NCBI GenBank assembly: GCA_964407105.1
Contig: CAYOUG010000001.1
Span: 96,227-160,226 of the forward strand
Direction of reading: 5' to 3'
Source: an uncultured Candidatus Saccharibacteria bacterium
GTDB lineage: Bacteria > Patescibacteriota > Minisyncoccia > Phycocordibacterales > CALRHW01
DNA length: 64,000 nucleotides
Made by a program: the position numbers and the translations under genes. Position 1 is the first letter of the stretch, and every line of letters starts with the position of its first letter. The notes below the pieces were generated by a model, which was not told the origin of the DNA, did not search any database, and saw nothing but the letters and a program-made list of their open reading frames with translations. Below, one piece after another: positions 7,199-63,089 of this stretch.

Positions 7199-7271
7199 GC
7201 ACGTGTAGCTCAGTTGGTAGAGCGGTCGTCTTATACACGACTGGTCCCAGGTTCGAGTCCTGGCACGTGCA
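7199..7271 (+). tRNA. tRNA with anticodon UAU (isoleucine, AUA-decoding); CCA not encoded
   Basis: I folded it by hand. The acceptor GCACGTG/CACGTGC has 7 bp, the D-stem is GCTC/GAGC, and the anticodon stem is GTCGT/ACGAC with loop CTTATAC. The variable region is 5 nt. The T-stem is CCAGG/CCTGG with loop TTCGAGT, and the discriminator is A. Confidence 0.75.
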
Positions 7272-7401
7272 CAATGAGCAGGGCGAATTGTGCACGTGAG
7301 CAAGTGCCCAATGGCACTTGCGAACAGGACGAGAAAGGCTTTTCGTTATCGAGAGAGCGTACTCGCTTTCGAGATCGAAAAGTACCCGCGGCGGTAGCCG
7401 A

Positions 7402-12169: not shown

Positions 12170-12565
12170 TTATAACCAACTATCGACTCCACCATGATGT
12201 GAACACGTTCCTTTTCTAGATTGACTAAAACTGTAAGTGTCGTCTCGACATCTAGCAGAAGCTCCTATTGGAATAGAATTATCTTGTGTATATGTTGGAG
12301 AATGCACCGAGTTACCGTAAGTATTGGTGTAGTAATTATCATTTGATAGCTCGGGGGTTTTTTGGGAAGTTGGTACTACTTTCTGAACGGTGTTTTGTGC
12401 ATTGACTTGGAACTGACTTGCAGGAGCTACTACTTGTGTCCCCTGAGTATATTGATTTGTGTTGTCACCCTGAAGACCACCCATACCCATCACGGCAACT
12501 GCTGCAACAGAAGCTAATATGTAGCGTTTCTTCTTATACCAAGGACGAGGGCTGTTTGGGTTCAT
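12170..12565 (-). CDS. membrane-anchored DUF3761-like protein
   Basis: It has an N-terminal TM anchor and the C-terminal 'CRDDTYSFSQSRKGTCSHHGGVDSWL', which matches the DUF3761 signature (CSHHGGV..W). Confidence 0.55.
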   Translation of the reverse strand: MNPNSPRPWYKKKRYILASVAAVAVMGMGGLQGDNTNQYTQGTQVVAPASQFQVNAQNTVQKVVPTSQKTPELSNDNYYTNTYGNSVHSPTYTQDNSIPIGASARCRDDTYSFSQSRKGTCSHHGGVDSWL

Positions 12566-12633: not shown

Positions 12634-12670
12634 AAAAAAACCGCACCCTAAGCTTACGCTACAGGTGCGG
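12634..12670 (-). terminator. rho-independent terminator for the 12704..13417 gene
   Basis: On the minus strand CCGCACC...GGTGCGG is followed by T7. Confidence 0.6.
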
Positions 12671-12703: not shown

Positions 12704-13417
12704 TCACCGACGACGTCTATATGTGAACATTCCAAGAACAAACAAACCGAGTGCTGATGGACCAGGAACTGTCGAACCGACTGAATCGATCCAGACTTCA
12801 CCTGACCCCATATTGAAATTTACAAAACCGATCGTATCAAAACCCGTAAACGATGGACCCCCATAGAAAGCGATCCAACTGGTCCAGGAGCCTTCATTCA
12901 ATCTGTATCGAGCCGATGCGTCTTGAGAACGCCACTCGATAGTGACGAGGTTCCAGATGTTGTCGGTATAGTCATCGAAACCAACATAAACATCCAGAAC
13001 AGGGTCAATGTAGGCGACCTGACCGCTTTTCATGAACGCCAAAGTCGCTCTCGACGGACCGTCCCACGAATCCTGAAAGAGACCGAGCTGAAAATTCTCG
13101 CCGATGCTGTAGTCTCCCCATTCAGAGTGGTTCACTGTCCGAACGTAAAACGACTGACTCCCATCTGCCAGTGAAACATCACCAGTCTTGGTAATGACAC
13201 TGTCGGCAAATTGATTGCTGCTTCCGATGGCTTCAGTCCCATCAATGCCGATGCCGTCCTGAACCAACCAGGTTTCACCATTGGCCCGATCGAACCAGTC
13301 TCCCTGCCCCACTACTGGTCCACTGACGTAGGAATTGAAATTATCCACGACAATGGAAGCTTGAGCATTCGTAGCCAAAAGAAAAAGCCACATAACGACA
13401 ATCACAATCATTTTCAT
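12704..13417 (-). CDS. secreted protein with a C-terminal PEP-CTERM-like sorting signal, in a GC-rich gene
   Basis: The signal peptide is 'MKMIVIVVMWLFLLATNAQA'. The extreme C-terminus 'VPGPSALGLFVLGMFTYRRRR*' has a Pro-rich motif, a hydrophobic helix and an Arg cluster. GC is visibly higher than in the flanks. Confidence 0.5.
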   Translation of the reverse strand: MKMIVIVVMWLFLLATNAQASIVVDNFNSYVSGPVVGQGDWFDRANGETWLVQDGIGIDGTEAIGSSNQFADSVITKTGDVSLADGSQSFYVRTVNHSEWGDYSIGENFQLGLFQDSWDGPSRATLAFMKSGQVAYIDPVLDVYVGFDDYTDNIWNLVTIEWRSQDASARYRLNEGSWTSWIAFYGGPSFTGFDTIGFVNFNMGSGEVWIDSVGSTVPGPSALGLFVLGMFTYRRRR

Positions 13418-13513
13418 TACAATTCTCCTATTTGAAGGTGCTTGAAAAAACCCATATCACTATACAATAAATCAATAACTAGTCAATGACACCTGGTTGA
13501 AAGTTCTTCTGTA

Positions 13514-13906
13514 TTAAATCTTCACAGCAATACTGCTTTCTTCAATCAAATAAGATTTGAAGATTTTGTAAGCTATCAACGTATTAAATATTACGAAAAG
13601 AACATACCATTGTTGACCAAGAATAATAAAATTATAGATAGAAATCAGTAAAACAATACTCGTGATAGTCAAAGCGGCCCCTTTCTTAGCCTTAAATTTA
13701 TTTGAATACAAGACTGCGGCAAAATAAATAGCCAATATACTTAGAATTGATCCGATTAACGAGTAGTTAGATGAAACCATCTCAATTCTTTCAGAAATCA
13801 CGGTGAGTATAACAACCGCTACATACTGAAACAATATTATCATTCCCATTACAATAATCACTGTTACCCAGATTGGTAAAACCTTTTTATAATCACCTCG
13901 GTTCAT
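13514..13906 (-). CDS. multi-pass membrane protein with about 4 TM helices, hypothetical
   Basis: Hydrophobic segments run through the whole protein. Confidence 0.45.
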   Translation of the reverse strand: MNRGDYKKVLPIWVTVIIVMGMIILFQYVAVVILTVISERIEMVSSNYSLIGSILSILAIYFAAVLYSNKFKAKKGAALTITSIVLLISIYNFIILGQQWYVLFVIFNTLIAYKIFKSYLIEESSIAVKI

Positions 13907-15162: not shown

Positions 15163-15729
15163 TTAATACTTTCTAACCACACCTTTTACTACAGCCGCAA
15201 TACGAAAACTTTCGCGTGGATATATCGGTTTATAATTTTTATTAGCGGGTTCGAGCCATATTTTTCCAGCCTTAATACGATAAAATTTCATTGTCCACCC
15301 ACCATCTACTTCTGCAATGACAATATCGCCGTCGCGCGCATATTCACGTTTCTCCGCAACCACCATGTCTCCTTCTCGTATTCCCTCTTCTATCATTGAG
15401 TCTCCCTTTACTTCAAGTAAATATGTATTACCTTGATCTTCAATAAGTAACTCATCGAGACTCAATGTATCGAGTGCTTCTGCTTCTGCAACAGAAGGAA
15501 TACCAGCTTCCACCAAACCAAGGACAGGAACTTGGTCAAACATATGCTTTGGAATAATTTTTCCACGGTCGTCTTTTTCAACAACACCTGCGTCGACAAG
15601 TTTGTTGATGAGCTTATAAACAGCATTTTTAGATTTGAAACCAACAAGAGACATGATCTCTTGATAGCTCGGCATACGCCGATGTTTTTTATAAAATGCT
15701 GTAATTTTTTGGAAATACTCCTCTTGCAT
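15163..15729 (-). CDS. lexA: LexA repressor
   Basis: It has an N-terminal wHTH, the cleavage-site region 'VEAGIPSVAEA', and the S24 Ser/Lys dyad ('KGDSM' ... 'MKFYRIK'). Confidence 0.9.
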   Translation of the reverse strand: MQEEYFQKITAFYKKHRRMPSYQEIMSLVGFKSKNAVYKLINKLVDAGVVEKDDRGKIIPKHMFDQVPVLGLVEAGIPSVAEAEALDTLSLDELLIEDQGNTYLLEVKGDSMIEEGIREGDMVVAEKREYARDGDIVIAEVDGGWTMKFYRIKAGKIWLEPANKNYKPIYPRESFRIAAVVKGVVRKY

Positions 15730-17572: not shown

Positions 17573-18025
17573 CTAGATTTTGTGAGGTTCGCCGTGATTG
17601 CGGCAAGGACTATGTGGTGAATGACCACCACAGTCACAGGTATTTGATCGGCCGAGATTACGACAGGAACCGAGTTTCTCACAATCACAGGTATGTGGTC
17701 GACCAAGATGTGATCCGTCTTCATGTGTCGCACCACCATGCGCGTTGTTTGCCGATGGTTGGCGACATGACAAGTCATCGAACAACGGAGTCTCTTGGAT
17801 CTCTGTGGTTGCAGCGAGTAGAGTCCCCGCCGCTTTAAATAGAGCCCGATTCAATTCTTCTGAACTCCCTTCGGCGATCTGTCTGAGTTCTTCTGGGGTG
17901 GCCCGTCTTGACGCTAGCGCCACCAAAACCCGCCTAGCAATCAATAGTCCCCAAAACGCCATCTCGCAACTCTCAGCTCTTTGCTTTGGCATTTTGTTAA
18001 GCTCAACACTATCACTACCGCCCAT
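17573..18025 (-). CDS. Cys/His-rich hypothetical protein in a GC-rich island
   Basis: AGGAGG lies 6 nt upstream of the ATG at 18025. The C-terminus is 'HTCDCEKLGSCRNLGRSNTCDCGGHSPHSPCRNHGEPH'. The region is clearly GC-richer than its neighbours. Overlapping ORFs on the opposite strand look less gene-like. Confidence 0.4.
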   Translation of the reverse strand: MGGSDSVELNKMPKQRAESCEMAFWGLLIARRVLVALASRRATPEELRQIAEGSSEELNRALFKAAGTLLAATTEIQETPLFDDLSCRQPSANNAHGGATHEDGSHLGRPHTCDCEKLGSCRNLGRSNTCDCGGHSPHSPCRNHGEPHKI

Positions 18026-18190
18026 CAGACACCTCCTGCCCCTTTTAAGGGCAAAAAAGAAACTGAGGAACAAATTTCATCTATATGTATAACACAAAAA
18101 ACCCTTATTTGATATGTCTCAGACCACTTGCTCTATTTTCAAAACAATGCTATATTTTCTTGACGTTATTAGGTTATTTTTATACACATA

Positions 18191-25245: not shown

Positions 25246-25680
25246 TTATTTTGCTACAGTTCCACCAGCTTTTTCTATTTTTGCTTTTGCTGATGCAGAG
25301 ACAAGACAACCAGACACAGTAAGTTTTTTGGTAAGTTCACCTCCTCCAAGAATTTTAACAAATAATTTTGCTCCTTTGTGAGAAGTTATAAGACCTTTTT
25401 CTGCAATTACTTTTGGGGTTATGCTGTCTCCATTTGAAAATGCCTTTTCAAACATACCGACATTTATCGCTGTAGATTTTGCATAAATACTTTTTGCACT
25501 ATAACCACGAAGTTTTGGAAGTCGTTTAATAAAATCTCGTACTTCTGGACGAAGCTTTCCTCCAGCTCGCGCTTTCTGACCTTTTGTCCCACGGCCTGAA
25601 GTTTTGCCACGCTTTCCACCACGACCTACAGACTGTGATCGTTTATTTTTTGTTTTTCTTTTTATATTGTGAATCTGCAT
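25246..25680 (-). CDS. rplO: 50S ribosomal protein L15
   Basis: It has a Gly/Arg/Lys-rich N-terminus 'GRGGKRGKTSGRGTKGQKARAGG'. Confidence 0.9.
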   Translation of the reverse strand: MQIHNIKRKTKNKRSQSVGRGGKRGKTSGRGTKGQKARAGGKLRPEVRDFIKRLPKLRGYSAKSIYAKSTAINVGMFEKAFSNGDSITPKVIAEKGLITSHKGAKLFVKILGGGELTKKLTVSGCLVSASAKAKIEKAGGTVAK

Positions 25681-25690
25681 GGTCTTTGTA

Positions 25691-26320
25691 TTATGCTTTT
25701 ACTCTTGTCTTTCGCTCTTTTAATTTACCAAGTGCATCAAGAGCAGCCTTTGCATTGTTAAGCTGATTTTTACTTCGTGAGAAAATTTTTGCTCCCGCGT
25801 TTTTGATACCAGCAAGCTCAAGTACAGGACGAACAGAGCTTCCTGCGATAATACCCTTTCCTGGAGCCGGCATAATGAGTACACGAGAACCACAATATTT
25901 AGATTCTACATCGTGTGAAATAGACATGTCTTTTGTGAGGCGTACGGTAATCATGTGTTTTTTTGCGTTTCGAAGCGCTTTGTCTATAGCAAGAGAAGTG
26001 TCTCCTGCTTTTCCAATACCCACACCCACAAGACCTTTTCGGTTGCCAGCAACAAGAGCCACGCTAAATGCAAATCGTCGACCTCCTGTTACCACACGAG
26101 TTACGCGACGAATGCTAATAATTTTCTGATCAAACTCAGGTTTTGCACGAGGTTCTCGTCTTGGACCTTGTTTGCGAGGATTTTTTTGAAATCCACCTCT
26201 AGAATCACGACCAAACGGCACTCGTGCATCTCTAGGTTTTTGTAAAGCAGGAGAAACAGCAATCACTTCTGGTTGTGTTGTTTCTGTTACTGTATCAATT
26301 GTTGTTGTATCTTTTTCCAT
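25691..26320 (-). CDS. rpsE: 30S ribosomal protein S5 (N-terminal extension of about 55 aa)
   Basis: It has 'RVTRVVTGGRRFAFSVALVAGN' and 'GVGIGKAGD'. Confidence 0.9.
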   Translation of the reverse strand: MEKDTTTIDTVTETTQPEVIAVSPALQKPRDARVPFGRDSRGGFQKNPRKQGPRREPRAKPEFDQKIISIRRVTRVVTGGRRFAFSVALVAGNRKGLVGVGIGKAGDTSLAIDKALRNAKKHMITVRLTKDMSISHDVESKYCGSRVLIMPAPGKGIIAGSSVRPVLELAGIKNAGAKIFSRSKNQLNNAKAALDALGKLKERKTRVKA

Positions 26321-34615: not shown

Positions 34616-35812
34616 TTAAGCGATAATTTTTGTGATAACTCCCGCTCCCACCGTTTTACCTCCTTCTCGAATAGCAAATCTTTGTTTTTCTTCAAGAGCA
34701 ACTGGTGCTACAAGCTTTACTTTGAAAGTCACTGTGTCTCCTGGCATAACCATTTCAACACCCTCTTTTAGAGTCACATCTCCTGTAACGTCTGTTGTTC
34801 GGATATAGAATTGTGGTTTGTATCCTGAGAAGAAAGGAGTGTGTCGTCCACCTTCTTCTTTCTTTAGAATGTAAACTTCTGATTCAAACTCTGTGTGAGG
34901 TGTTACTGATCCTGGTTTTGCAAGAACCTGTCCTCGAGAAATATCTTCTTTTTTAAGACCTCGAACAAGAATTCCGGCATTGTCTCCAGCCATACCCTCA
35001 GAAAGTGATTTGTTGAACATTTCGATACCAGTCACAACAGTCTTTGCAATAGGTTTTAGACCAACAACTTCTACCTCTTCACCCACTTTTATAACACCGC
35101 GTTCGATACGTCCGGTTACCACTGTTCCACGACCTTCGATTGAGAAAATGTCCTCAACTGGCATAAGAAATGCCTTTTCAAGATCACGAGCTGGAATTGG
35201 AATGTATGTATCAAGAACGTTTGCGAGTTCAAGAATCTTTTGTGCCCATTCATCACTATTATCTTTTGCTTCAAGTGCTTTTAGACCAGAACCACGAATC
35301 ACAGGAGCGTTTGCGCCATCATATTCATTTTTTGTAAGGAGTTCACGCACTTCTTCTTCCACAAGGTCAATGAGTTCTTTATCAGGAACCATGTCACACT
35401 TGTTTAGAAAAACAACAACCTTTGGTACTCCAATCTGTCGAGCCAAAAGAATATGTTCGCGAGTTTGTGGCATAACACCGTCTGTAGCAGCCACCACAAG
35501 AATAGCACCGTCCATTTGAGCGGCACCGGTGATCATGTTTTTAATATAGTCGGCATGGCCCGGAGCGTCGATGTGAGCGTAATGACGAGTTGGTGTTTCG
35601 TATTCGTTGTGAGAAAGCGCAATGGTAATACCACGAGCTTTTTCTTCAGGGGCTTTATCAATACCGTCGATACCCACAACCTTTGCACTAAAACCTGTGC
35701 CTTGTCGTGATAGAACCGCAAGAATAGCTGCTGTTAATGTGGTCTTTCCATGATCAACGTGGCCGATAGTTCCTACGTTTACATGGGGTTTTGATCGATC
35801 AAAATCTGTCAT
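34616..35812 (-). CDS. tuf: elongation factor Tu
   Basis: It has '[23 protein letters not shown]', 'DAPGHADY' and 'NKCD'. Confidence 0.97.
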
Positions 35813-36004
35813 GTTTTTAATGTTAGCCCGACACACAGTGTGGTCGAGGGGTTATAAATAAATTACTGCTTTATTTCGTTTTGTATGATGTTTTTTGAAG
35901 ACAACAAAACAAAAACGGCGCAAAAAGCGATAGTGCTCATATTAGCAAACGATGTGCAATAGTCAAGCAGACACGGCTTGAACAACAATTATCATTTGTT
36001 GGAC

Positions 36005-36034
36005 TTGACATGGTCACTAAAAATATGCTATTGT
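36005..36034 (+). promoter_or_regulatory. sigma70-type promoter (TTGACA, 18 nt, TGcTATTGT extended -10) for the 36080 gene
   Basis: I read it directly. AAGGAG lies 7 nt before the ATG at 36080. Confidence 0.5.
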
Positions 36035-36079
36035 GTGAGCGAGGTTACTGTCTTTTCGCCACCTTAAAGGAGACCTATA

Positions 36080-36334
36080 ATGGCTGAAACAAAAGACTAC
36101 GGTATTCAAATGCCCACTTCACGCGGCGGTTTCATGTTCTTTTTTTACGTGTTCTTTGCGGTAATGGGGCTCATCTCGTGGAATTTTGGCTTAACAGGAG
36201 CTCATGTGTTTTTGTTTGTTGTTTCGCTTGTTCTTTTGATTATATTATCAATGAGTGACTGTCCATTGTCTTTAATAGGTTGTGTGGGAGTGGTGGCTAT
36301 TACGTTACTAGTCCTACTACGATTAACTCTTTGA
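36080..36334 (+). CDS. small membrane protein (3 TM helices), hypothetical
   Basis: It has a strong promoter and SD, and hydrophobic helices. It is inserted between tuf and fusA. Confidence 0.55.
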   Translation: MAETKDYGIQMPTSRGGFMFFFYVFFAVMGLISWNFGLTGAHVFLFVVSLVLLIILSMSDCPLSLIGCVGVVAITLLVLLRLTL

Positions 36335-36518
36335 GGTGAAATAGGGTGTCACGTAAAGTCTAAGTCTTTTTCTTCACAATCGAAGCGATCAATTCTGGTC
36401 GCTTTTTCTTTTGACAATTTACAAAAATCTCTAAAAAAGAATACCAATATTGGGTTTTAGATTTAAAAAAGAAAGCCCCGACGAGAATTGTTGGGGCAGT
36501 GAAAACAAGTGGAGCTGG

Positions 36519-37091
36519 TCACTTGGATGTGTCAGCTTGGTCCAGTGAGCGGTCCAACTCTTCTCGCGCGGCCTTCTGCGAAGCTTGGAGCCAATCCGTC
36601 CAAGATGTCCACTGCGAAGATGGGAGCGGTGGCTTGAGAACAAGCAGTTTGTCGCCCCCTAGTCGCTTCGCGGTGGAACCGGTCAACACCATCACCACAT
36701 AACGCACCGGGTGATGATTCAGCTCTTCAAGCATGCTCCCCGTATTGCGCGGAGACATTTTACACCTGGTCATATGACTCCACGGCTTCCAGAAAACTGG
36801 CGGTCGAACCATCTCAAGATCAGAATTAAGCCACACATCACTCTTCCCCACCAGCAGTACTCCAAGTACAGCGTGATGACCCAGCTCGTGGAAACCCGCA
36901 GGGCGCACATACATATCCGACAAGGTTGCCGGTCGCACCTTGATTGAGCGGATCTTGTTGGGATAGAAAGCAAGCCATGGTAGCCTTGCCCTATATCCCT
37001 CCAGACCAGTCCCAGAAAGAGGTTCGAGTTCGTATATCTCATTGAACATTTTCTCGATTTCTGGTGAAAAAAAATACTCTGGGTAAATCAT
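36519..37091 (-). CDS. HExxH zinc metallopeptidase-like protein (possibly ImmA/IrrE-M78-like), in a GC-rich gene
   Basis: The motif is 'YVRPAGFHELGHHAVLGVLL'. AAGGAG lies 8 nt upstream of the ATG at 37091. A TTGACA-containing promoter lies upstream. GC is markedly higher than in the flanking str-operon spacer. Confidence 0.5.
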   Translation of the reverse strand: MIYPEYFFSPEIEKMFNEIYELEPLSGTGLEGYRARLPWLAFYPNKIRSIKVRPATLSDMYVRPAGFHELGHHAVLGVLLVGKSDVWLNSDLEMVRPPVFWKPWSHMTRCKMSPRNTGSMLEELNHHPVRYVVMVLTGSTAKRLGGDKLLVLKPPLPSSQWTSWTDWLQASQKAAREELDRSLDQADTSK

Positions 37092-37291
37092 TCCAAATCT
37101 CCTTCGTGGCACAGCCACTTTGTAGAAGCGCACAGCACTTCATAAGTAAAGAACGGGTAAAGCACGGCTTTACCGCCAAAAACATAATATAACAAAAGTA
37201 TATTTTGTCAAATAGAATTACCGCCGGTATCACGAGGTTTCTTTATAACTTCTTTAGGGAAACTTTAGGAAATATATGATTCTATTTAGGG

Positions 37292-37825
37292 ATGAAAAAC
37301 AATAATACACAAGATTCAATTGAAGTTGTTTTAAGTGAAAATGTACAAAATAAAATTTATATGATTAGAAATGAAAAGGTTATGCTCGATTTTGATTTGG
37401 CTGCACTTTACAAGATAAAAACCCAAGCTCTTAATCAAGCCGTTAAAAGAAACCTGAAAAGATTTCCTTCTGATTTTATGTTTCCCCTAAGTAAAGACGA
37501 GGAGAAAATTTTGATATCACAAATTGTGATATCAAAATCAGGCGGTAGACGAAAACCTGTCTTCGCCTTTACCGAGCAAGGCATAGCAATGCTCTCAAGC
37601 GTTCTAAAAAGCGACCGCGCTATTGCGGTAAACATTCAAATAATAAGAACATTCACCCAGCTAAGGCGCATGCTTTCAACCCACAAAGAACTCCGAGAGA
37701 AAATTGAGGAGCTTGAGAAAAAGTATGATGGAAAATTTGAAATCCTCTTTAAAACGATTCGGCAAATTTTAACAGAACAAGAAGAACCTAGAGAAAAAAT
37801 TGGGTTTAAAAATCAAAATCTATAA
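37292..37825 (+). CDS. ORF6N-domain (KilA-N-related, phage-associated) DNA-binding protein
   Basis: 'IRNEKVMLDFDLAALYKIKTQALNQAVKRNLKRFPSDFMF' and 'GGRRKPVFAFTEQGIAMLSSVLKSDRAIAVNIQIIRTF' match the ORF6N signature. Confidence 0.65.
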   Translation: MKNNNTQDSIEVVLSENVQNKIYMIRNEKVMLDFDLAALYKIKTQALNQAVKRNLKRFPSDFMFPLSKDEEKILISQIVISKSGGRRKPVFAFTEQGIAMLSSVLKSDRAIAVNIQIIRTFTQLRRMLSTHKELREKIEELEKKYDGKFEILFKTIRQILTEQEEPREKIGFKNQNL

Positions 37826-37857
37826 ACAAAAAACCGCCAGAGGCGGTTTTTTGTTTT

Positions 37858-40002
37858 CTACTTTCGACTCTCCACAATCGTCTTCTCCACGTTTGGAGGC
37901 ACAATATCGTAGTGATCAAATTCCATTCCAGCGTTTCCGCGACCTTCGGTCATTGAGCGGAGTTGTGTGGTAAATCCAAACATTTCAGAAAGAGGCACCA
38001 TCGCTCGAATTACTTTTATGCCTCCTGGGCGATCTTCAAAACCTTCTATTGTTGCGCGTTTTGATGAAAGACTTCCTGTAATGTCTCCGAAGAATTTTTC
38101 AGGGACGGTCACTTCAAGTTTCATAATTGGCTCAAGAATAACTGGTCGAGCTTTCTTTGCAGCTTCTTGAAACGCTTGAGACGCAGCAATTTTATAAGCA
38201 ATTTCAGATGAATCCACGTCGTGATAAGAACCGAAAGTGAGCTCACAAGATACGTTTACCATTTTGTATCCAGCCACAATTCCACGATCCATTGCTTCTT
38301 TTACTCCTTTTTCTACTGCAGGAATAAACTCCTGAGGAATAACCCCTCCCTTAATTGAATCCACGAATTCAAATCCGTCGTATCGTTTTACGTTTTTAGG
38401 AATTTTTGCTCCCTCTTCGATTTTTTCAAGTGGTTTGATATTCAATTTTACGTGACCGTACTGACCCTTTCCTCCAGATTGCTTGATGTATTTGTGTTCT
38501 GCTTCTGCGGTTCCTGTGATTGTTTCTTTATAAGACACTTGAGGTTGGCCAACGTTTGCTTCCACGGTAAATTCTCGCTTCATTCGGTCTACCATAATTT
38601 CAAGGTGAAGCTCTCCCATTCCTGAAATAATTGTTTCGCCAGTATCTGAGTTTGAACTAATTTTAAATGTTGGATCTTCGTCAGAAAGTTTTTTGAGAGC
38701 CATTCCCATTTTTTCACTGTCTGCTTTTGTTTTTGGTTCGATACGCAAAGACACAACGGGTTCAACGAATTTAATTGGATCAAGAATAATCGGCTGATTT
38801 TCATCACAAAGAGTATGGGATGTTCTGGCACTTTTTAAACCCACCGCCGCCGCGATTTCTCCAGCAAAAACTTTTTTTACTTCTTCACGTTTGTCGGCCT
38901 GAAGTCGCACAATACGACCGAGTCGCTCTTTTTCGCCAGTTGTGGAGTTATAAATATAGGTTCCAGCTTCGATTGTTCCTGAATACACGCGGAAAAACGT
39001 AAGCTGCCCAACAAATGGATCGTTTTGGAGCTTGAAAGCAAGCGCCGCAAAAGGTTCATCATCTGACGCGTGTCGTGTAATGGTGTCTCCTGTTTTTGGA
39101 TCAAGACCGGTTACTGGAGGAATATCAAGTGGAGACGGAAGATACTCTACAACACCATCAAGTACAAGCTGAACACCTTTATTTTTCAACGCAGAACCAG
39201 CAAACACTGGAATAAGTTTTACCGCGAGTGTGGCTTTTCTAAGTGTTGCTTTTAATGCAGACATTTCAGGCTCTTTACCATCAAGATACATAGACATGAG
39301 CTCATCATCTTGTTCAACAATTTTTTCAATAAGTGTCGCTCGATGTTTTTTTGCTTCTTCTAAATATTCTGCAGGAATTTCTGCTTCTCGAATTTCAATA
39401 CCCATCGTTCCTTCAAAATAATATGCTTTCATTTTGAGTAAATCGATAACGCCTTCAAAATGTTCTTCAAGACCAATAGGAATTTGGAGACGTACAGCGT
39501 TTGGATTTAGTCTGTCGACAATAGATTTAAATGATCGTTCAAAACTCGCACCCATACGATCGAGTTTGTTGATAAAACATACTCGAGGCACTTTTCCATC
39601 ATCAGCATATCGCCAATTTGTTTCAGATTGAGGTTCTACTCCAGCCACGCCGTCGAAAACCACCACCGCACCGTCGAGTACTCGTAGAGAGCGCTTTACT
39701 TCAGCAGTAAAATCAATGTGTCCGGGAGTATCAATAATATTAAAACGAAACATTGCGCTTTTTTCTTTTGGCGCATATGTAGGATTCCAAAAACAAGTAA
39801 TGGCCGCAGCGGTAATGGTGATACCACGTTCTCGTTCCTGCTCCATCCAGTCAGTGGTAGTATTTCCTTCATGCACTTCACCTATCTTGTGACTCATTCC
39901 TGTGTAATACAAAACGCGCTCTGATGTGGTTGTTTTCCCAGCATCAATATGCGCAATAATTCCAAAATTTCTTGTTTTTTCTAATGGGTAGTCGCGGTTC
40001 AT
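37858..40002 (-). CDS. fusA: elongation factor G
   Basis: It has 'RNFGIIAHIDAGKTTTSERVLYYTG' and 'DTPGHIDF', and is 714 aa. Confidence 0.97.
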   Translation of the reverse strand: MNRDYPLEKTRNFGIIAHIDAGKTTTSERVLYYTGMSHKIGEVHEGNTTTDWMEQERERGITITAAAITCFWNPTYAPKEKSAMFRFNIIDTPGHIDFTAEVKRSLRVLDGAVVVFDGVAGVEPQSETNWRYADDGKVPRVCFINKLDRMGASFERSFKSIVDRLNPNAVRLQIPIGLEEHFEGVIDLLKMKAYYFEGTMGIEIREAEIPAEYLEEAKKHRATLIEKIVEQDDELMSMYLDGKEPEMSALKATLRKATLAVKLIPVFAGSALKNKGVQLVLDGVVEYLPSPLDIPPVTGLDPKTGDTITRHASDDEPFAALAFKLQNDPFVGQLTFFRVYSGTIEAGTYIYNSTTGEKERLGRIVRLQADKREEVKKVFAGEIAAAVGLKSARTSHTLCDENQPIILDPIKFVEPVVSLRIEPKTKADSEKMGMALKKLSDEDPTFKISSNSDTGETIISGMGELHLEIMVDRMKREFTVEANVGQPQVSYKETITGTAEAEHKYIKQSGGKGQYGHVKLNIKPLEKIEEGAKIPKNVKRYDGFEFVDSIKGGVIPQEFIPAVEKGVKEAMDRGIVAGYKMVNVSCELTFGSYHDVDSSEIAYKIAASQAFQEAAKKARPVILEPIMKLEVTVPEKFFGDITGSLSSKRATIEGFEDRPGGIKVIRAMVPLSEMFGFTTQLRSMTEGRGNAGMEFDHYDIVPPNVEKTIVESRK

Positions 40003-42172: not shown

Positions 42173-42784
42173 TCAGGTGCTCTGTTGAGAGAAAGAGGTT
42201 TCATCAACAGCCACGAAAAGTTGATACCGACCAAACCGCCAGAATGGATCATGGAAAGTGCCGGAGTTTACACTCCAACCACCAAACCATCCCGGACGCC
42301 AAAACACAAAAACCGGGCAAAGCACACCTGCGTGGTTTAACACAGGAAAGATGTTCAGATCACCATTTGTTCTGAGAACACCCGCCTTACCCTTTCTTTG
42401 CGCTTTCATCAAAAAGTAGACCTGAGCAAGGCCGGTGCGGTGGTTTTCTCCCAAAACAACGGGTTCGTTGGTCTCAGGAAGTGGTTTGGACACAAAGCAA
42501 ACGAGAATACTCGCCTGACTTGGTTCTTCTACCACCCCTCCAAAGTTTGCAACAAAACGCTTGCCTCGGTCTACAATTTTGACTCCCGTGAAGAGATTCC
42601 GCCCCCGCACGAAATTGCGCCTAACAACAAACTCTTCTTTGATTCTCGGTACCACAACCGGAGACAGATCTCTTAGGGTAATTGGTTCCGAATTCAAAGA
42701 TGCTGTTTTTGGCACAGTCTGATTATCAGACACTGAACGCAGGAATTCGCGCCACGAGCGCAGATCTCCAATACTCATACTCAT
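42173..42784 (-). CDS. hypothetical protein in a GC-rich island
   Basis: AAAGGAGGTG lies upstream of 'MSMSIGD'. The start was placed by ORF-track arithmetic, with an uncertainty of about 3 nt. I recognised no domain. GC is higher than in the neighbours. Confidence 0.4.
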   Translation of the reverse strand: MSMSIGDLRSWREFLRSVSDNQTVPKTASLNSEPITLRDLSPVVVPRIKEEFVVRRNFVRGRNLFTGVKIVDRGKRFVANFGGVVEEPSQASILVCFVSKPLPETNEPVVLGENHRTGLAQVYFLMKAQRKGKAGVLRTNGDLNIFPVLNHAGVLCPVFVFWRPGWFGGWSVNSGTFHDPFWRFGRYQLFVAVDETSFSQQST

Positions 42785-42887
42785 TTTCCACCTCCTTTCT
42801 TTTTGTGGATGAATTTTAGTATGTTCTAATATAGGAGTATACACGATAAAGAATCATTTAAAATGGGTAGGTGTGAATATGAAATAA

Positions 42888-46247: not shown

Positions 46248-46913
46248 ATGACCAAACTTGAACGCCTGTTCTTTGATGGTAGGGTGTCACCACTACTCTT
46301 GAGATTGTGGTGCCCAATAGATGGTCACAAAATGGTGAAGATGTGGTACAAGAACAGAAATGAGGGGGCGTTCTTCTCAATCATCTTCTTGTTTTGTACG
46401 GCTTTCTTTGTTTTCAAGTACATTACAACTTCTACTATTTTTTGGCACAACGGTGATTTTGGCACCTCCAGCATCAGCCTGCTCGAATTGGGGTTGATCT
46501 GTATCCCTTACGCCATGTTTGGTTTTTCTGGACTTTTCGTGTTCAAAATGCTTTTACGCAACCTCCACTACAAAACAGATCCATTCGAAGACGTAAGCAA
46601 ATTCCCTGATACTAAATTCTTTGACGCCTGCGACAGGCTAGCAGAGATTTTAGAAATTAGCACCGCAGGATACGCGAGCAAGGAGTGGATCAGACAAGCA
46701 GTAGACACACATCTCGTAAGAATCGGTCGACATGTGGTCGATGAAGAAAAGAGTGGAGTAAGAGACTCTGAAACATTAGAAGAAAACCGAAAAAAAATGA
46801 GAGAAGATCACAGCTTTCTGGTAGATAATTTTCCAGCGGTTGTGGACGGAACCTTCAATAGATATTACCAAATAGCAGAAGAAAAATGGGCTGAGGAAAA
46901 CAGCCCAACTTAA
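46248..46913 (+). CDS. membrane protein (2 TM helices), hypothetical, in a moderately GC-richer gene
   Basis: AAGGAA lies upstream of the ATG. A terminator lies at 46946-46982. Confidence 0.45.
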   Translation: MTKLERLFFDGRVSPLLLRLWCPIDGHKMVKMWYKNRNEGAFFSIIFLFCTAFFVFKYITTSTIFWHNGDFGTSSISLLELGLICIPYAMFGFSGLFVFKMLLRNLHYKTDPFEDVSKFPDTKFFDACDRLAEILEISTAGYASKEWIRQAVDTHLVRIGRHVVDEEKSGVRDSETLEENRKKMREDHSFLVDNFPAVVDGTFNRYYQIAEEKWAEENSPT

Positions 46914-62642: not shown

Positions 62643-63089
62643 GTGCTTTCGAGAAATAGAAAAATTGGTCTGTGGTGTTGGTTTGTGACGGTGATTTTTA
62701 CCGTCACATTTTTTTCCGTAACGCTGTGGATCATCGATATCCACAAGCCTCACCCAGCACAGAAAATCGTCGGAAACGACGCGGGAGGGTTTCTGACATT
62801 GGTCAAAACCCACGGAACACGGTACGAAGGAACGTACCTGTTCAAGGAAGGGAAAGAGTTCAGCGAGATTGTCTTAAGAATCGAGGGTGGGTATGTTCCC
62901 AACCCAGAACAGATCAGTACGATCTGTTTCGACGAATTCTCTAAAGCTTCCCTGAAATCTTTCTCTCCAGCCTGGATTGAAATCGTTTTTAAGGACGATG
63001 GAAATCCATCGATCACCACATCGATGACGGTGCCGGACTCCAACCCAATACCCGACGGCGAAAGAAGAAAGCTCATCATCGGAAAGTGA
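62643..63089 (+). CDS. small TM-anchored/secreted protein, hypothetical, in a GC-richer gene
   Basis: It has a GTG start with AGGAG 7 nt upstream and an N-terminal TM segment. Confidence 0.5.
   Translation: MLSRNRKIGLWCWFVTVIFTVTFFSVTLWIIDIHKPHPAQKIVGNDAGGFLTLVKTHGTRYEGTYLFKEGKEFSEIVLRIEGGYVPNPEQISTICFDEFSKASLKSFSPAWIEIVFKDDGNPSITTSMTVPDSNPIPDGERRKLIIGK

What the first reader, a model, noticed from the sequence alone, without database searches (positions are those of the whole stretch)
12704..13417. PEP-CTERM-like C-terminal sorting signal on a GC-rich secreted protein
The protein ends exactly with a Pro-containing motif, a roughly 14-residue hydrophobic helix and an RRRR cluster (VPGPSALGLFVLGMFTYRRRR). 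That is the architecture recognised by exosortase/archaeosortase. No exosortase is in the window. The gene is visibly GC-richer than the flanks and has its own terminator, which suggests horizontal acquisition. I do not know of exosortase substrates in CPR-type genomes. That is my recollection, not a searched result.
Basis: partly seen in the sequence, partly recalled or inferred. Interest (0 to 1): 0.5.

Follow-up and report, generated by a model that had tools for sequence, protein, structure and literature searches.

The report
Degenerate PEP-CTERM tail on CPR lectin
A small secreted lectin-like surface protein of a CPR-type bacterium ends in a membrane-anchoring tail that descends from the PEP-CTERM sorting signal but has lost its key glutamate, and its relatives show that true PEP-CTERM tails occur in this supposedly outer-membrane-less bacterial group.

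Summary
The ORF is real: 12704-13417 on the minus strand, 237 aa. It has a signal peptide, a β-sandwich domain and the tail VPGPSALGLFVLGMFTYRRRR, plus its own RBS, promoter-like site and terminator.

The tail fails the curated PEP-CTERM models: Pfam 12.2 bits against a 20.7 cut-off, TIGR02595 15.1 against 16. It is nevertheless homologous to true PEP-CTERM tails. About 37 relatives carry [VI]PEP + TM + RRK directly after the same domain. They include proteins from MAGs labelled Candidatus Staskawiczbacteria and Nealsonbacteria. Only this protein has Gly in place of the Glu. Reverting G219E in silico lifts it over both cut-offs.

The closest relatives (53-62% identity) have no tail at all. The modelled domain (pLDDT 84.5) has a concanavalin-A-like lectin fold.

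The GC anomaly is real but confined to the lectin domain (GC3 0.52). The signal peptide and tail have host-like GC3 (0.25 and 0.22).

No exosortase, sortase or rhomboid family matched any of the 31 non-ribosomal window ORFs scanned. None is recorded in the ~7 kb left flank or in four 11-18 kb neighbourhoods of tailed relatives. The whole genome could not be searched.

My reading is a PEP-CTERM-derived anchor on a CPR surface lectin. Whether it is still processed is unresolved.

The parts
13459..13486 (-). Promoter-like site TTGACT-16-TATAGT upstream of the gene
   Evidence: 10 of 12 consensus matches. This is a consensus match only; the count in the region is not above shuffles.
13425..13429 (-). 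Ribosome-binding site AGGAG, 7 nt upstream of ATG 13417
   Evidence: Sequence read. It favours the first ATG over the second one (13411) used in the public record P0001.
12704..13417 (-). Complete CDS, 237 aa plus stop (TGA at 12704-12706)
   Evidence: An identical protein, starting two residues later, is in public data on a 284,280-bp NCBI contig.
13358..13417 (-). Signal peptide, residues 1-20 (MKMIVIVVMWLFLLATNAQA, predicted cleavage after AQA)
   Evidence: Sequence inspection. Modelled as helix 2-15. GC3 is 0.25, host-like.
12779..13357 (-). Globular β-sandwich domain with a concanavalin-A-like lectin fold, residues 21-213; the compositionally foreign part
   Evidence: AlphaFold model with pLDDT 84.5 and pTM 0.80. 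Foldseek hits to legume lectins, the calreticulin lectin domain, BT_1020, TtX122 and CBM66, E 1e-7 to 1e-5. A family of 458 representatives. GC3 0.52 against 0.255 expected from host codon usage.
12707..12778 (-). C-terminal tripartite tail, residues 214-237 (GSTVPGPSALGLFVLGMFTYRRRR), homologous to PEP-CTERM
   Evidence: Aligned with 11 PEP-CTERM-tailed relatives: G214, P218, P220 and R235 are invariant. A profile of 37 relatives' tails gives 12.3 bits, matched by 1 of 4000 shuffles. GC3 0.22, host-like.
12758..12766 (-). Signature motif Pro218-Gly219-Pro220 (CCT GGT CCA) where relatives have Pro-Glu-Pro
   Evidence: Glu at this position in all 37 tailed relatives. In silico G219E raises PF07589 from 12.2 to 22.8 bits and TIGR02595 to 18.5 bits.
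12719..12757 (-). Hydrophobic segment, residues 221-233 (SALGLFVLGMFTY), abutting the motif with no spacer
   Evidence: Sequence inspection. Modelled as helix 222-236. Relatives that pass TIGR02595 have segments of the same length, 13-14 residues (P0158, P0038, P0201).
12707..12718 (-). Arg cluster RRRR at the extreme C-terminus
   Evidence: codons AGA CGT CGT CGG.
12634..12670 (-). Intrinsic terminator: 8-bp G+C-rich stem with an inner 3-bp stem, then U7
   Evidence: the centroid structure is this hairpin alone. MFE of the 86-nt stretch is -26.8 kcal/mol, z -2.0.

Best explanation
The gene encodes a Sec-exported surface protein of a CPR-type (Patescibacteria) bacterium. A cleavable signal peptide takes a roughly 190-residue concanavalin-A-like, probably glycan-binding, β-sandwich across the membrane.

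The last 24 residues descend from the PEP-CTERM sorting signal carried by many members of the same CPR protein family. They consist of a motif that directly abuts a short hydrophobic helix, followed by RRRR. The otherwise invariant Glu of Pro-Glu-Pro is Gly here.

I infer that the helix, with its Arg cluster on the cytoplasmic side, holds the lectin domain on the cell surface as a C-terminal membrane anchor. I also infer that the exosortase-type cleavage and re-anchoring step implied by the strictly conserved PEP motif of the relatives is weakened or lost in this protein.

The gene is a compositional mosaic. The lectin-domain DNA is foreign-like, probably exchanged with another CPR lineage of higher GC. 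The signal peptide and tail are native-like.

Shown: the ORF, the tail's homology, the fold, the mosaic, and the absence of a sorting enzyme among the ORFs examined locally. Inferred: topology, glycan binding, and lack of processing.
For: - ORF and tail.
- Tail homology: alignment A3. Ours reads VWIDSVGSTVPGPSALGLFVLGMFTYRRRR; P0158 reads VYIDSLGSPVPEPASLGLLLIGSFLFLRRR, 16 of 30 identical. A profile of 37 relatives' tails scores ours at 12.3 bits, reached by 0 of 2000 free shuffles and 1 of 2000 shuffles with RRRR fixed.
- Relatives' tails are bona fide: TIGR02595 scores 16.9-28.5 bits against a 16-bit cut-off in 7 of 10 tested. PF07589 scores 22.9 and 24.1 for P0184 and P0201.
- The Glu is the only thing missing: G219E gives PF07589 22.8 bits (cut-off 20.7) and TIGR02595 18.5 bits (cut-off 16).
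- CPR setting: family members carry NCBI names Staskawiczbacteria, Nealsonbacteria, Parcubacteria group, Patescibacteria group and Saccharibacteria. In the window, S5 and L15 are adjacent with no L30 between them.
- Fold.
- Mosaic: GC3 is 0.52 in the domain, 0.25 in the signal peptide and 0.22 in the tail. The amino-acid-matched Mantel-Haenszel z is -3.69, and the ends match host expectation (0.23 observed, 0.26 expected). Tailed relatives L008 and L041 do not show this pattern.
- Family-wide compositional discordance with host contigs: L035 0.604 vs 0.446, L004 0.384 vs 0.496.
- No exosortase, sortase or rhomboid hit in 31 non-ribosomal window ORFs. None is recorded in L006 or near tailed relatives in L047, L049, L051, L052.
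Against: - Only about 71 kb of a genome with at least a 284-kb contig was examined, so an exosortase elsewhere is not excluded.
- V, P, P and S of the motif and the whole tail are otherwise intact. Host-like codon usage suggests long residence. That fits continued selection on the tail, so it may still be processed.
- No experiment shows that Glu is indispensable for exosortase recognition.
- The mosaic rests on 39 informative codons at the two ends.
- NJ placement relative to the tailed clade is unresolved: it is sister to it in 45 of 200 bootstraps.
- The fold match has modest TM-scores (0.4-0.59), and no ligand-binding residues were checked.
Confidence: 0.55

Rival explanations
1. The tail is a fully functional sorting signal. 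An exosortase- or archaeosortase-type enzyme encoded elsewhere in the genome recognises VPGPS, cleaves it and transfers the lectin domain to a lipid or cell-wall acceptor. PGP would then be a tolerated or lineage-specific variant of PEP.
For: - Every other feature of the signal is intact and aligned with true PEP-CTERM tails.
- The isolated tail scores 15.1 bits on TIGR02595, just under the 16-bit cut-off.
- The tail's codon usage is host-like, suggesting it has been maintained in this genome.
- Strict PEP conservation in 37 relatives implies that a cognate enzyme exists in CPR lineages.
- Exosortase-family systems do exist in monoderm bacteria: XrtG with Firmicu-CTERM in Lactiplantibacillus (PMC12854382).
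Against: - It is the only tail of 38 in the family without the Glu.
- No sorting enzyme turned up in about 71 kb here or in about 55 kb around four tailed relatives.
- It is the only such tail in the window and its flank, whereas PEP-CTERM genomes usually carry many (Haft preprint).
Confidence: 0.3
2. The whole gene, tail included, was recently transferred from a diderm bacterium that has a classical PEP-CTERM/exosortase system. It is an orphan substrate in the CPR host.
For: The gene has the most deviant composition in the window, with GC3 0.51 against 0.30. PEP-CTERM is described as a feature of bacteria with an outer membrane.
Against: - All close and intermediate relatives that carry any taxonomic label are CPR.
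- Contigs of tailed relatives have low GC, 0.31-0.39.
- One tailed relative lies 5 kb from a sortase and FemAB genes, a monoderm-type context.
- The tail and signal peptide of this gene have host-like, not donor-like, codon usage.
Confidence: 0.07
3. The tail is a chance C-terminal transmembrane anchor, or a read-through extension, unrelated to PEP-CTERM.
For: Curated HMM hits are all below threshold: E 0.21 for Pfam and 0.07-0.11 for NCBIfam. The six closest homologues end right after the domain with no tail.
Against: Position-by-position alignment with the tails of homologous proteins shows an invariant G214, P218, P220 and R235. The family tail profile beats 3999 of 4000 shuffles. A single residue change restores passing scores on both curated models.
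Confidence: 0.03
4. The tail is a substrate of a classical sortase (an LPXTG-type signal), as is common in monoderm and CPR bacteria.
For: A sortase gene (PF04203) lies 5 kb from a tailed relative in the Staskawiczbacteria contig L049. The overall tripartite design is shared with LPXTG signals.
Against: There is no LPXTG-like pentapeptide (the sequence is STVPGPS). No LPXTG model hit appeared even at E<=10. The motif abuts the hydrophobic segment with no spacer, which is typical of signals cut by intramembrane enzymes rather than by sortase (Haft preprint). No sortase is in the window.
Confidence: 0.03

Closest known systems
PEP-CTERM sorting signal with exosortase (TIGR02595 / PF07589; XrtA, EpsH)
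   Same: It sits at the extreme C-terminus and has an N-terminal signal peptide. The motif V-P-x-P-S directly abuts a hydrophobic stretch of about 13 residues, followed by an Arg cluster. It is homologous to the tails of relatives that pass the curated models.
   Different: The Glu of PEP is Gly, so scores fall below cut-off. The host is a CPR-type, presumably monoderm, bacterium rather than a diderm. No exosortase and no second tailed protein were found in about 71 kb.
PGF-CTERM with archaeosortase A (archaeal S-layer glycoprotein anchoring)
   Same: It is a tripartite C-terminal signal in a cell without an outer membrane, where cleavage leaves a surface protein attached to the membrane. This is a plausible functional analogue for CPR.
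   Different: The motif is different (PGF), the organisms are archaeal, and no PGF- or PEF-CTERM model hit for this protein appeared.
Exosortase G (XrtG) with Firmicu-CTERM in Lactobacillaceae
   Same: It is a precedent for an exosortase-family system in monoderm bacteria (PMC12854382).
   Different: There the substrate, XrtG and glycosyltransferases are adjacent. Here the neighbours are DUF3761, a small membrane protein, a β-lactamase-family protein and LexA. No Firmicu-CTERM hit appeared.
Concanavalin-A-like lectin/glucanase fold (legume lectins, calreticulin lectin domain, CBM66, TtX122)
   Same: The predicted β-sandwich matches these at Foldseek probability 1.0, E 1e-7 to 1e-5.
   Different: Sequence identity is 7-15% and TM-scores are 0.4-0.59. 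No Pfam, NCBIfam or PHROG family covers the domain. Ligand and binding site are unknown.
'Choice-of-anchor' style surface domains (one domain found with alternative anchoring modules; concept from NCBIfam naming, recalled from my own knowledge)
   Same: The same domain occurs in several settings. It can have no tail, or be the C-terminal domain of larger proteins with PG_binding_1 or collagen-like regions. It can carry a PEP-CTERM tail, or other C-terminal hydrophobic extensions.
   Different: It is not a member of any named choice-of-anchor family: no NCBIfam hit.

Membership tests
PEP-CTERM sorting domain (TIGR02595 / PF07589) | Score at or above the curated cut-off of the family model | tested here: not met
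   PF07589 scores 12.2 bits against 20.7. TIGR02595 is not reported for the full protein and scores 15.1 against 16 for the isolated 32-aa tail.
PEP-CTERM sorting domain (TIGR02595 / PF07589) | Signature motif Pro-Glu-Pro | tested here: not met
   The motif is Pro-Gly-Pro (codons CCT GGT CCA). All 37 tailed relatives have Glu.
PEP-CTERM sorting domain (TIGR02595 / PF07589) | Tripartite design at the extreme C-terminus: a motif abutting a hydrophobic helix, then an Arg-rich cluster | tested here: met
   VPGPS, then SALGLFVLGMFTY, then RRRR and the stop. Helix 222-236 in the model. Design criteria are as in the Haft preprint.
PEP-CTERM sorting domain (TIGR02595 / PF07589) | N-terminal signal peptide on the same protein | tested here: met
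   MKMIVIVVMWLFLLATNAQA|S has an n-region Lys, a hydrophobic core and an AxA site (sequence inspection). No dedicated predictor was available.
PEP-CTERM sorting domain (TIGR02595 / PF07589) | Homology of the tail to tails that do pass the model | tested here: met
   Alignment A3. The family tail profile gives 12.3 bits, reached by 1 of 4000 shuffles. The G219E revertant passes both models.
PEP-CTERM sorting domain (TIGR02595 / PF07589) | Several non-homologous proteins with the same tail in one genome | tested here: inconclusive
   The target is the only PEP- or PGP-tailed ORF in the 64-kb window and the L006/L007 flanks. In a relative's contig (L055), two unrelated lectin domains carry PEP-CTERM.
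PEP-CTERM sorting domain (TIGR02595 / PF07589) | Co-occurrence with an exosortase (EpsH/Xrt, PF09721/TIGR04178) in the genome | tested here: inconclusive
   No hit among 31 non-ribosomal window ORFs and none recorded in the left flank L006. The remaining 200+ kb of the contig and any other contigs could not be searched.
LPXTG / sortase substrates | LPXTG-like pentapeptide with a spacer before the hydrophobic segment | tested here: not met
   There is no such motif in STVPGPSALG..., and no LPXTG model hit at E<=10.
MYXO-CTERM (TIGR03901) | [quoted passage not shown] | tested here: not met
   The tail has no Cys. Scores are 12.9 bits for the full protein and 17.7 for the tail alone, against 20.
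Concanavalin-A-like lectin/glucanase fold | β-sandwich jelly-roll matching solved lectins and CBMs | tested here: met
   Model pLDDT 84.5. 292 PDB chains match at E<=1e-3; the top hits are lectins, calreticulin and CBM-like domains. Carbohydrate binding itself is not testable here.

The most novel reading that the evidence does not exclude
CPR/Patescibacteria, which are thought to lack an outer membrane, may run an exosortase- or archaeosortase-like C-terminal sorting pathway. It would attach lectin-type adhesins (ConA-like and C-type lectin domains) to their surface, for example for episymbiotic attachment to host cells. The window's protein would be a member of that substrate family with an altered recognition motif (PGP): either a specificity variant, or a snapshot of the signal decaying into a plain membrane anchor.
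Probability: 0.35. Interest if true: 0.7.

Novelty: new variant of a known kind. Interest (0 to 1): 0.45.

Why it matters
PEP-CTERM/exosortase sorting is described as a trait of bacteria with a periplasm and outer membrane (Haft preprint). Full-text searches of the held library found no paper linking it to CPR.

This gene led to a CPR-wide lectin-fold family in which about 37 members carry canonical PEP-CTERM tails with a strictly conserved PEP motif. That conservation implies a cognate processing enzyme in at least some CPR lineages. How these ultra-small episymbionts display adhesins is an open question, and this family makes it testable.

The window's own copy is a natural experiment. It has an intact tail lacking only the Glu, and a lectin domain that appears to have been swapped in between a native signal peptide and a native tail.

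Tried and rejected
- Looking up the target protein's own contig failed. Neither start variant is indexed, so the genome could not be walked. The Logan contigs for the same run are short. Cluster look-ups gave no names or accessions.
- The genome is not among the GTDB representatives. The single genome-contig scan returned only a Saccharibacteria relative.
- A phage origin for the family was considered, because distant relatives lack signal peptides and end in INIGDxWK repeats. I rejected it as a general explanation: there are no meaningful PHROG hits and only one IMG/VR locus.
- The first structure model, from a 7-sequence alignment, was poor (pLDDT 58.9) and was replaced. The afdb50 fold library was unavailable.
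- A Biopython bootstrap timed out. The numpy re-implementation left the placement unresolved.
- Rfam scans of the other GC-rich stretches found nothing.
- The neighbouring 130-aa membrane protein (13514-13906) was considered as a possible sorting enzyme. I rejected it: it has no Cys or His and no family hit.

Full report
**1. What is there**

The minus-strand ORF at 12704-13417 encodes 237 aa. It starts with MKMIVIVVMWLFLLATNAQA|SIVV, a Lys-containing n-region, a hydrophobic core and an AxA site. It ends with ...WIDSVGSTVPGPSALGLFVLGMFTYRRRR*.

An AGGAG lies 7 nt upstream of ATG 13417. The public record P0001 starts at the second ATG. A 10/12 promoter-like site lies at 13459-13486. A G+C-rich hairpin followed by U7 lies at 12634-12670, 33 nt after the stop. 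The gene therefore looks like a self-contained transcription unit.

A scan of the window for ORFs ending in a hydrophobic stretch plus a basic cluster returned four. The target was the only one in the gene set chosen.

**2. Curated models**

Against NCBIfam and Pfam the tail gives only sub-threshold hits:
- PF07589 PEP-CTERM: 12.2 bits (cut-off 20.7).
- MYXO-CTERM: 12.9 bits (cut-off 20).
- NF038120: 13 bits (cut-off 80).
- TIGR02595 on the tail alone: 15.1 bits (cut-off 16).

On these numbers alone, the tail could be a chance anchor.

**3. Relatives settle the origin of the tail**

The six closest homologues (53-62% identity) end exactly after the globular domain (...YIDxL*) and have no tail.

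A profile search of 1.84 billion representatives found 458 relatives. Two further searches added more. Among 249 sequences collected:
- 99 end within 3 residues of the domain.
- About 37 continue with G-x(0-4)-[VI]PEP-[STA], a 13-20 residue hydrophobic stretch, and R/K at the C-terminus.

Seven of ten tested tails pass TIGR02595 at 16.9-28.5 bits. P0184 and P0201 pass PF07589.

In the alignment of twelve tailed proteins, G214, P218, P220 and R235 are invariant. Glu219 is present in all but the window's protein.

The most similar tail is that of P0158, with 16 of 30 positions identical:
- P0158: VYIDSLGSPVPEPASLGLLLIGSFLFLRRR
- Window: VWIDSVGSTVPGPSALGLFVLGMFTYRRRR

I built an HMM from the 37 relatives' tails, leaving ours out. 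It scores our tail at 12.3 bits. None of 2000 free shuffles reached that, and 1 of 2000 shuffles with RRRR fixed did. Changing Gly219 to Glu in silico raises the scores as follows:
- Family tail profile: 22.3 bits.
- PF07589: 22.8 bits.
- TIGR02595: 18.5 bits.

The last two are above the curated cut-offs. The tail is therefore a PEP-CTERM homologue that lacks only the signature Glu.

**4. Who carries this family**

Source names attached to family members are:
- Candidatus Staskawiczbacteria (P0184, GCA_001821875.1).
- Candidatus Nealsonbacteria (P0179).
- Parcubacteria group (P0023).
- Patescibacteria group (P0218).
- An uncultured Saccharibacteria MAG (L005).

P0184 has a canonical tail, GANPVPEPGTIVLLLTGLIACGFLLRRK. 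Its contig also carries a sortase, FemAB and FtsQ.

Contigs of tailed relatives have GC of 0.31-0.39. Many loci come from 0.1-µm groundwater fractions.

The window itself is CPR-like. It has 38.6% GC, and S5 and L15 are 10 nt apart with no L30 gene. That L30 is absent in CPR is from my own knowledge.

In contig L055, a ConA-like lectin with a PEP-CTERM tail runs without a stop codon into a second unit. That unit has its own AGGAGG and ATG, and consists of a signal peptide, a C-type lectin domain (PF00059, 24.3 bits) and a PEP-CTERM tail (22.9 bits). So at least two unrelated domains share the tail in one organism. Its first domain is 71% identical to the Nealsonbacteria protein.

PEP-CTERM tails are thus a real feature of CPR-type genomes. 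Full-text searches found no paper that links the two.

**5. The domain**

With a 14-sequence alignment, AlphaFold gives pLDDT 84.5 and pTM 0.80. The model has an N-terminal helix (the signal peptide), a 13-strand β-sandwich, and a C-terminal helix at 222-236.

Foldseek against the PDB returns the sialidase BT_1020, calreticulin lectin domains, legume lectins, TtX122 and CBM66. E-values are 1e-7 to 1e-5 and TM-scores 0.4-0.59. This is a concanavalin-A-like lectin fold.

No Pfam, NCBIfam or PHROG family covers it. In most relatives it is the C-terminal domain of larger proteins with PG_binding_1, collagen-like or Pro-rich regions. One domain therefore occurs with alternative anchoring modules.

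**6. Composition**

The gene is the most compositionally deviant 714-nt stretch of the window. GC3 is 0.506 against 0.296 ± 0.083, and the tetranucleotide distance is at the 99.8th percentile.

The anomaly is not uniform:

| Region | GC3 | Codons counted |
|---|---|---|
| Domain, residues 21-213 | 0.52 | 182 |
| Signal peptide | 0.25 | 16 |
| Tail | 0.22 | 23 |

- Fisher test, tail vs domain: p = 0.007.
- Fisher test, both ends vs domain: p = 0.0013.
- Amino-acid-matched Mantel-Haenszel z = -3.69.
- The ends match host codon usage (0.23 observed, 0.26 expected). The domain does not (0.52 observed, 0.255 expected).

Tailed relatives L008 and L041 show no such pattern.

Family members often differ in GC from their contigs, and in either direction. 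L035 is 0.604 vs 0.446, L033 is 0.557 vs 0.470, L004 is 0.384 vs 0.496, and L024 is 0.443 vs 0.512. Several sit next to restriction-modification genes or LexA.

My reading is that the lectin-domain DNA is exchanged among CPR lineages. Here it was placed, or replaced, between a resident signal peptide and a resident tail.

**7. The sorting enzyme**

No exosortase, archaeosortase, sortase or rhomboid family hit was found among 31 non-ribosomal ORFs of the window. The remaining ORFs are ribosomal proteins and translation factors, judged from their sequences.

None is recorded among the called genes of:
- the ~7 kb left flank (L006);
- four neighbourhoods of tailed relatives: L047 (12 kb), L049 (13 kb), L051 (18.5 kb) and L052 (11.6 kb).

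No other PEP- or PGP-tailed ORF occurs in any fetched locus outside this family. The second unit of L055 was found separately.

Presence or absence of an exosortase is therefore untested at genome level.

**8. Mechanism and verdict**

Shown:
- A Sec-type N-terminus.
- A lectin-fold domain.
- A C-terminal tail homologous to PEP-CTERM with Glu replaced by Gly.
- Mosaic composition.
- No sorting enzyme among the ORFs examined locally.

Inferred:
- The protein is exported, and the helix with its RRRR cluster retains it in the membrane with the lectin domain outside.
- In relatives, the strictly conserved PEP implies recognition by an intramembrane exosortase-type enzyme.
- In this protein that step is probably impaired, because it is the only one of 38 tails without the Glu.

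The alternative is that PGP is tolerated and the tail is still processed. This stays open at about 0.3, because the tail is otherwise intact and looks resident.

A chance anchor, a sortase substrate, and a whole-gene import from a diderm are each unlikely.

Domain-only NJ phylogeny places the protein inside a clade that mixes tail-less CPR proteins with the P0025/P0158 tailed clade. It is sister to the tailed clade in the full-data tree but in only 45 of 200 bootstraps. Whether the tail is ancestral here is unresolved.

**9. Comparison and novelty**

It works like a PEP-CTERM protein and descends from one. It fails two defining membership features, the PEP motif and the model cut-off, so I do not file it as a member.

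The closest analogues for a cell without an outer membrane are PGF-CTERM with ArtA in archaea and XrtG with Firmicu-CTERM in lactobacilli.

I rate it a new variant of a known kind, with moderate interest. The single gene is a degenerate signal. It does expose an undescribed PEP-CTERM-tailed lectin family in CPR bacteria, and it points to an exosortase-like pathway there that can be tested.

Noticed in passing
window 35837-37857: About 2 kb is inserted between tuf (34616-35836, -) and fusA (37858-40002, -). It holds a GC-rich ORF at 36519-37133 (GC 0.52, GC3 0.56, no Pfam or NCBIfam hit) and an ORF6N/KilAC-type gene at 37292-37825 (PF10543, E 4e-32). It looks like a small foreign insertion inside the str operon. 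No Rfam hit of note.
   Followed up: partly
window 7199-7272 (+): A tRNA-Ile with a UAU anticodon (ARAGORN, Rfam 73.6 bits). Most bacteria read AUA with a lysidine-modified CAU tRNA, so a genuine UAU tRNA-Ile is unusual (from my own knowledge).
   Followed up: no
window 17573-18073: A GC-rich stretch (0.51) upstream of infC. Its only long ORF looks spurious (Cys/His/Arg-rich, TTG start). No Rfam match at E<=0.1. It may be an undescribed structured RNA or a gene remnant.
   Followed up: partly
window 25246-26320: Ribosomal protein genes S5 (TIGR01021) and L15 (TIGR01071) are 10 nt apart with no L30 gene between them. This is consistent with a CPR genome.
   Followed up: yes
L055 1495-2739: A ConA-like lectin with a PEP-CTERM tail continues in frame, with no stop codon, into a second unit: signal peptide, C-type lectin (PF00059) and PEP-CTERM. 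An AGGAGG and ATG are embedded in the RRRL codons of the first tail. So two unrelated PEP-CTERM lectins are in tandem or fused in one CPR-like contig.
   Followed up: yes
L049 10948-12564; L051 10870-13113; L041 682-1815; window 15163-15729; L004 10567-11127: Family members sit next to restriction-modification genes. L049 and L051 have MvaI_BcnI plus an N6_N4 methyltransferase, which in L051 is fused to a LexA/S24 domain. L041 has a C5 methyltransferase. Others sit near LexA: 1.7 kb away in the window and 3.2 kb in L004, where the LexA is 54% identical. This may be a variable or defence-island context that favours exchange.
   Followed up: partly
L012, L023, L024 (C-termini of the matched ORFs): Three relatives have long C-terminal extensions after the lectin domain. 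They end in a shared motif, SPSPEPT...K(R)FFLW[IF]xxxF, which may be a different conserved C-terminal anchor or signal.
   Followed up: no
P0072, P0090, P0105 and other distant relatives: Distant family members start directly with MATIF(T/E)DNFNSY and have no signal peptide. Some end in repeated INIGDxWK units, reminiscent of virion or fibre proteins. However, PHROGs gave no real hit and IMG/VR only one locus (L054).
   Followed up: partly
window 12170-12565 (-) and 13514-13906 (-): The flanking genes are a DUF3761 protein with an N-terminal TM segment (PF12587, E 7e-22) downstream and a 130-aa four-helix membrane protein with no family hit upstream. Neither has features of a sorting enzyme.
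   Followed up: yes
window 42173-42844 (-), 46248-46913 (+), 62643-63089 (+): Three more ORFs have raised GC3 (0.44-0.57) and no Pfam or NCBIfam family. They may be further foreign genes or spurious ORFs.
   Followed up: partly
window 13411-13417: The public protein record (P0001, 235 aa) starts at the second ATG. The AGGAG spacing (7 nt) favours the first ATG, which adds Met-Lys to the signal peptide's n-region.
   Followed up: yes
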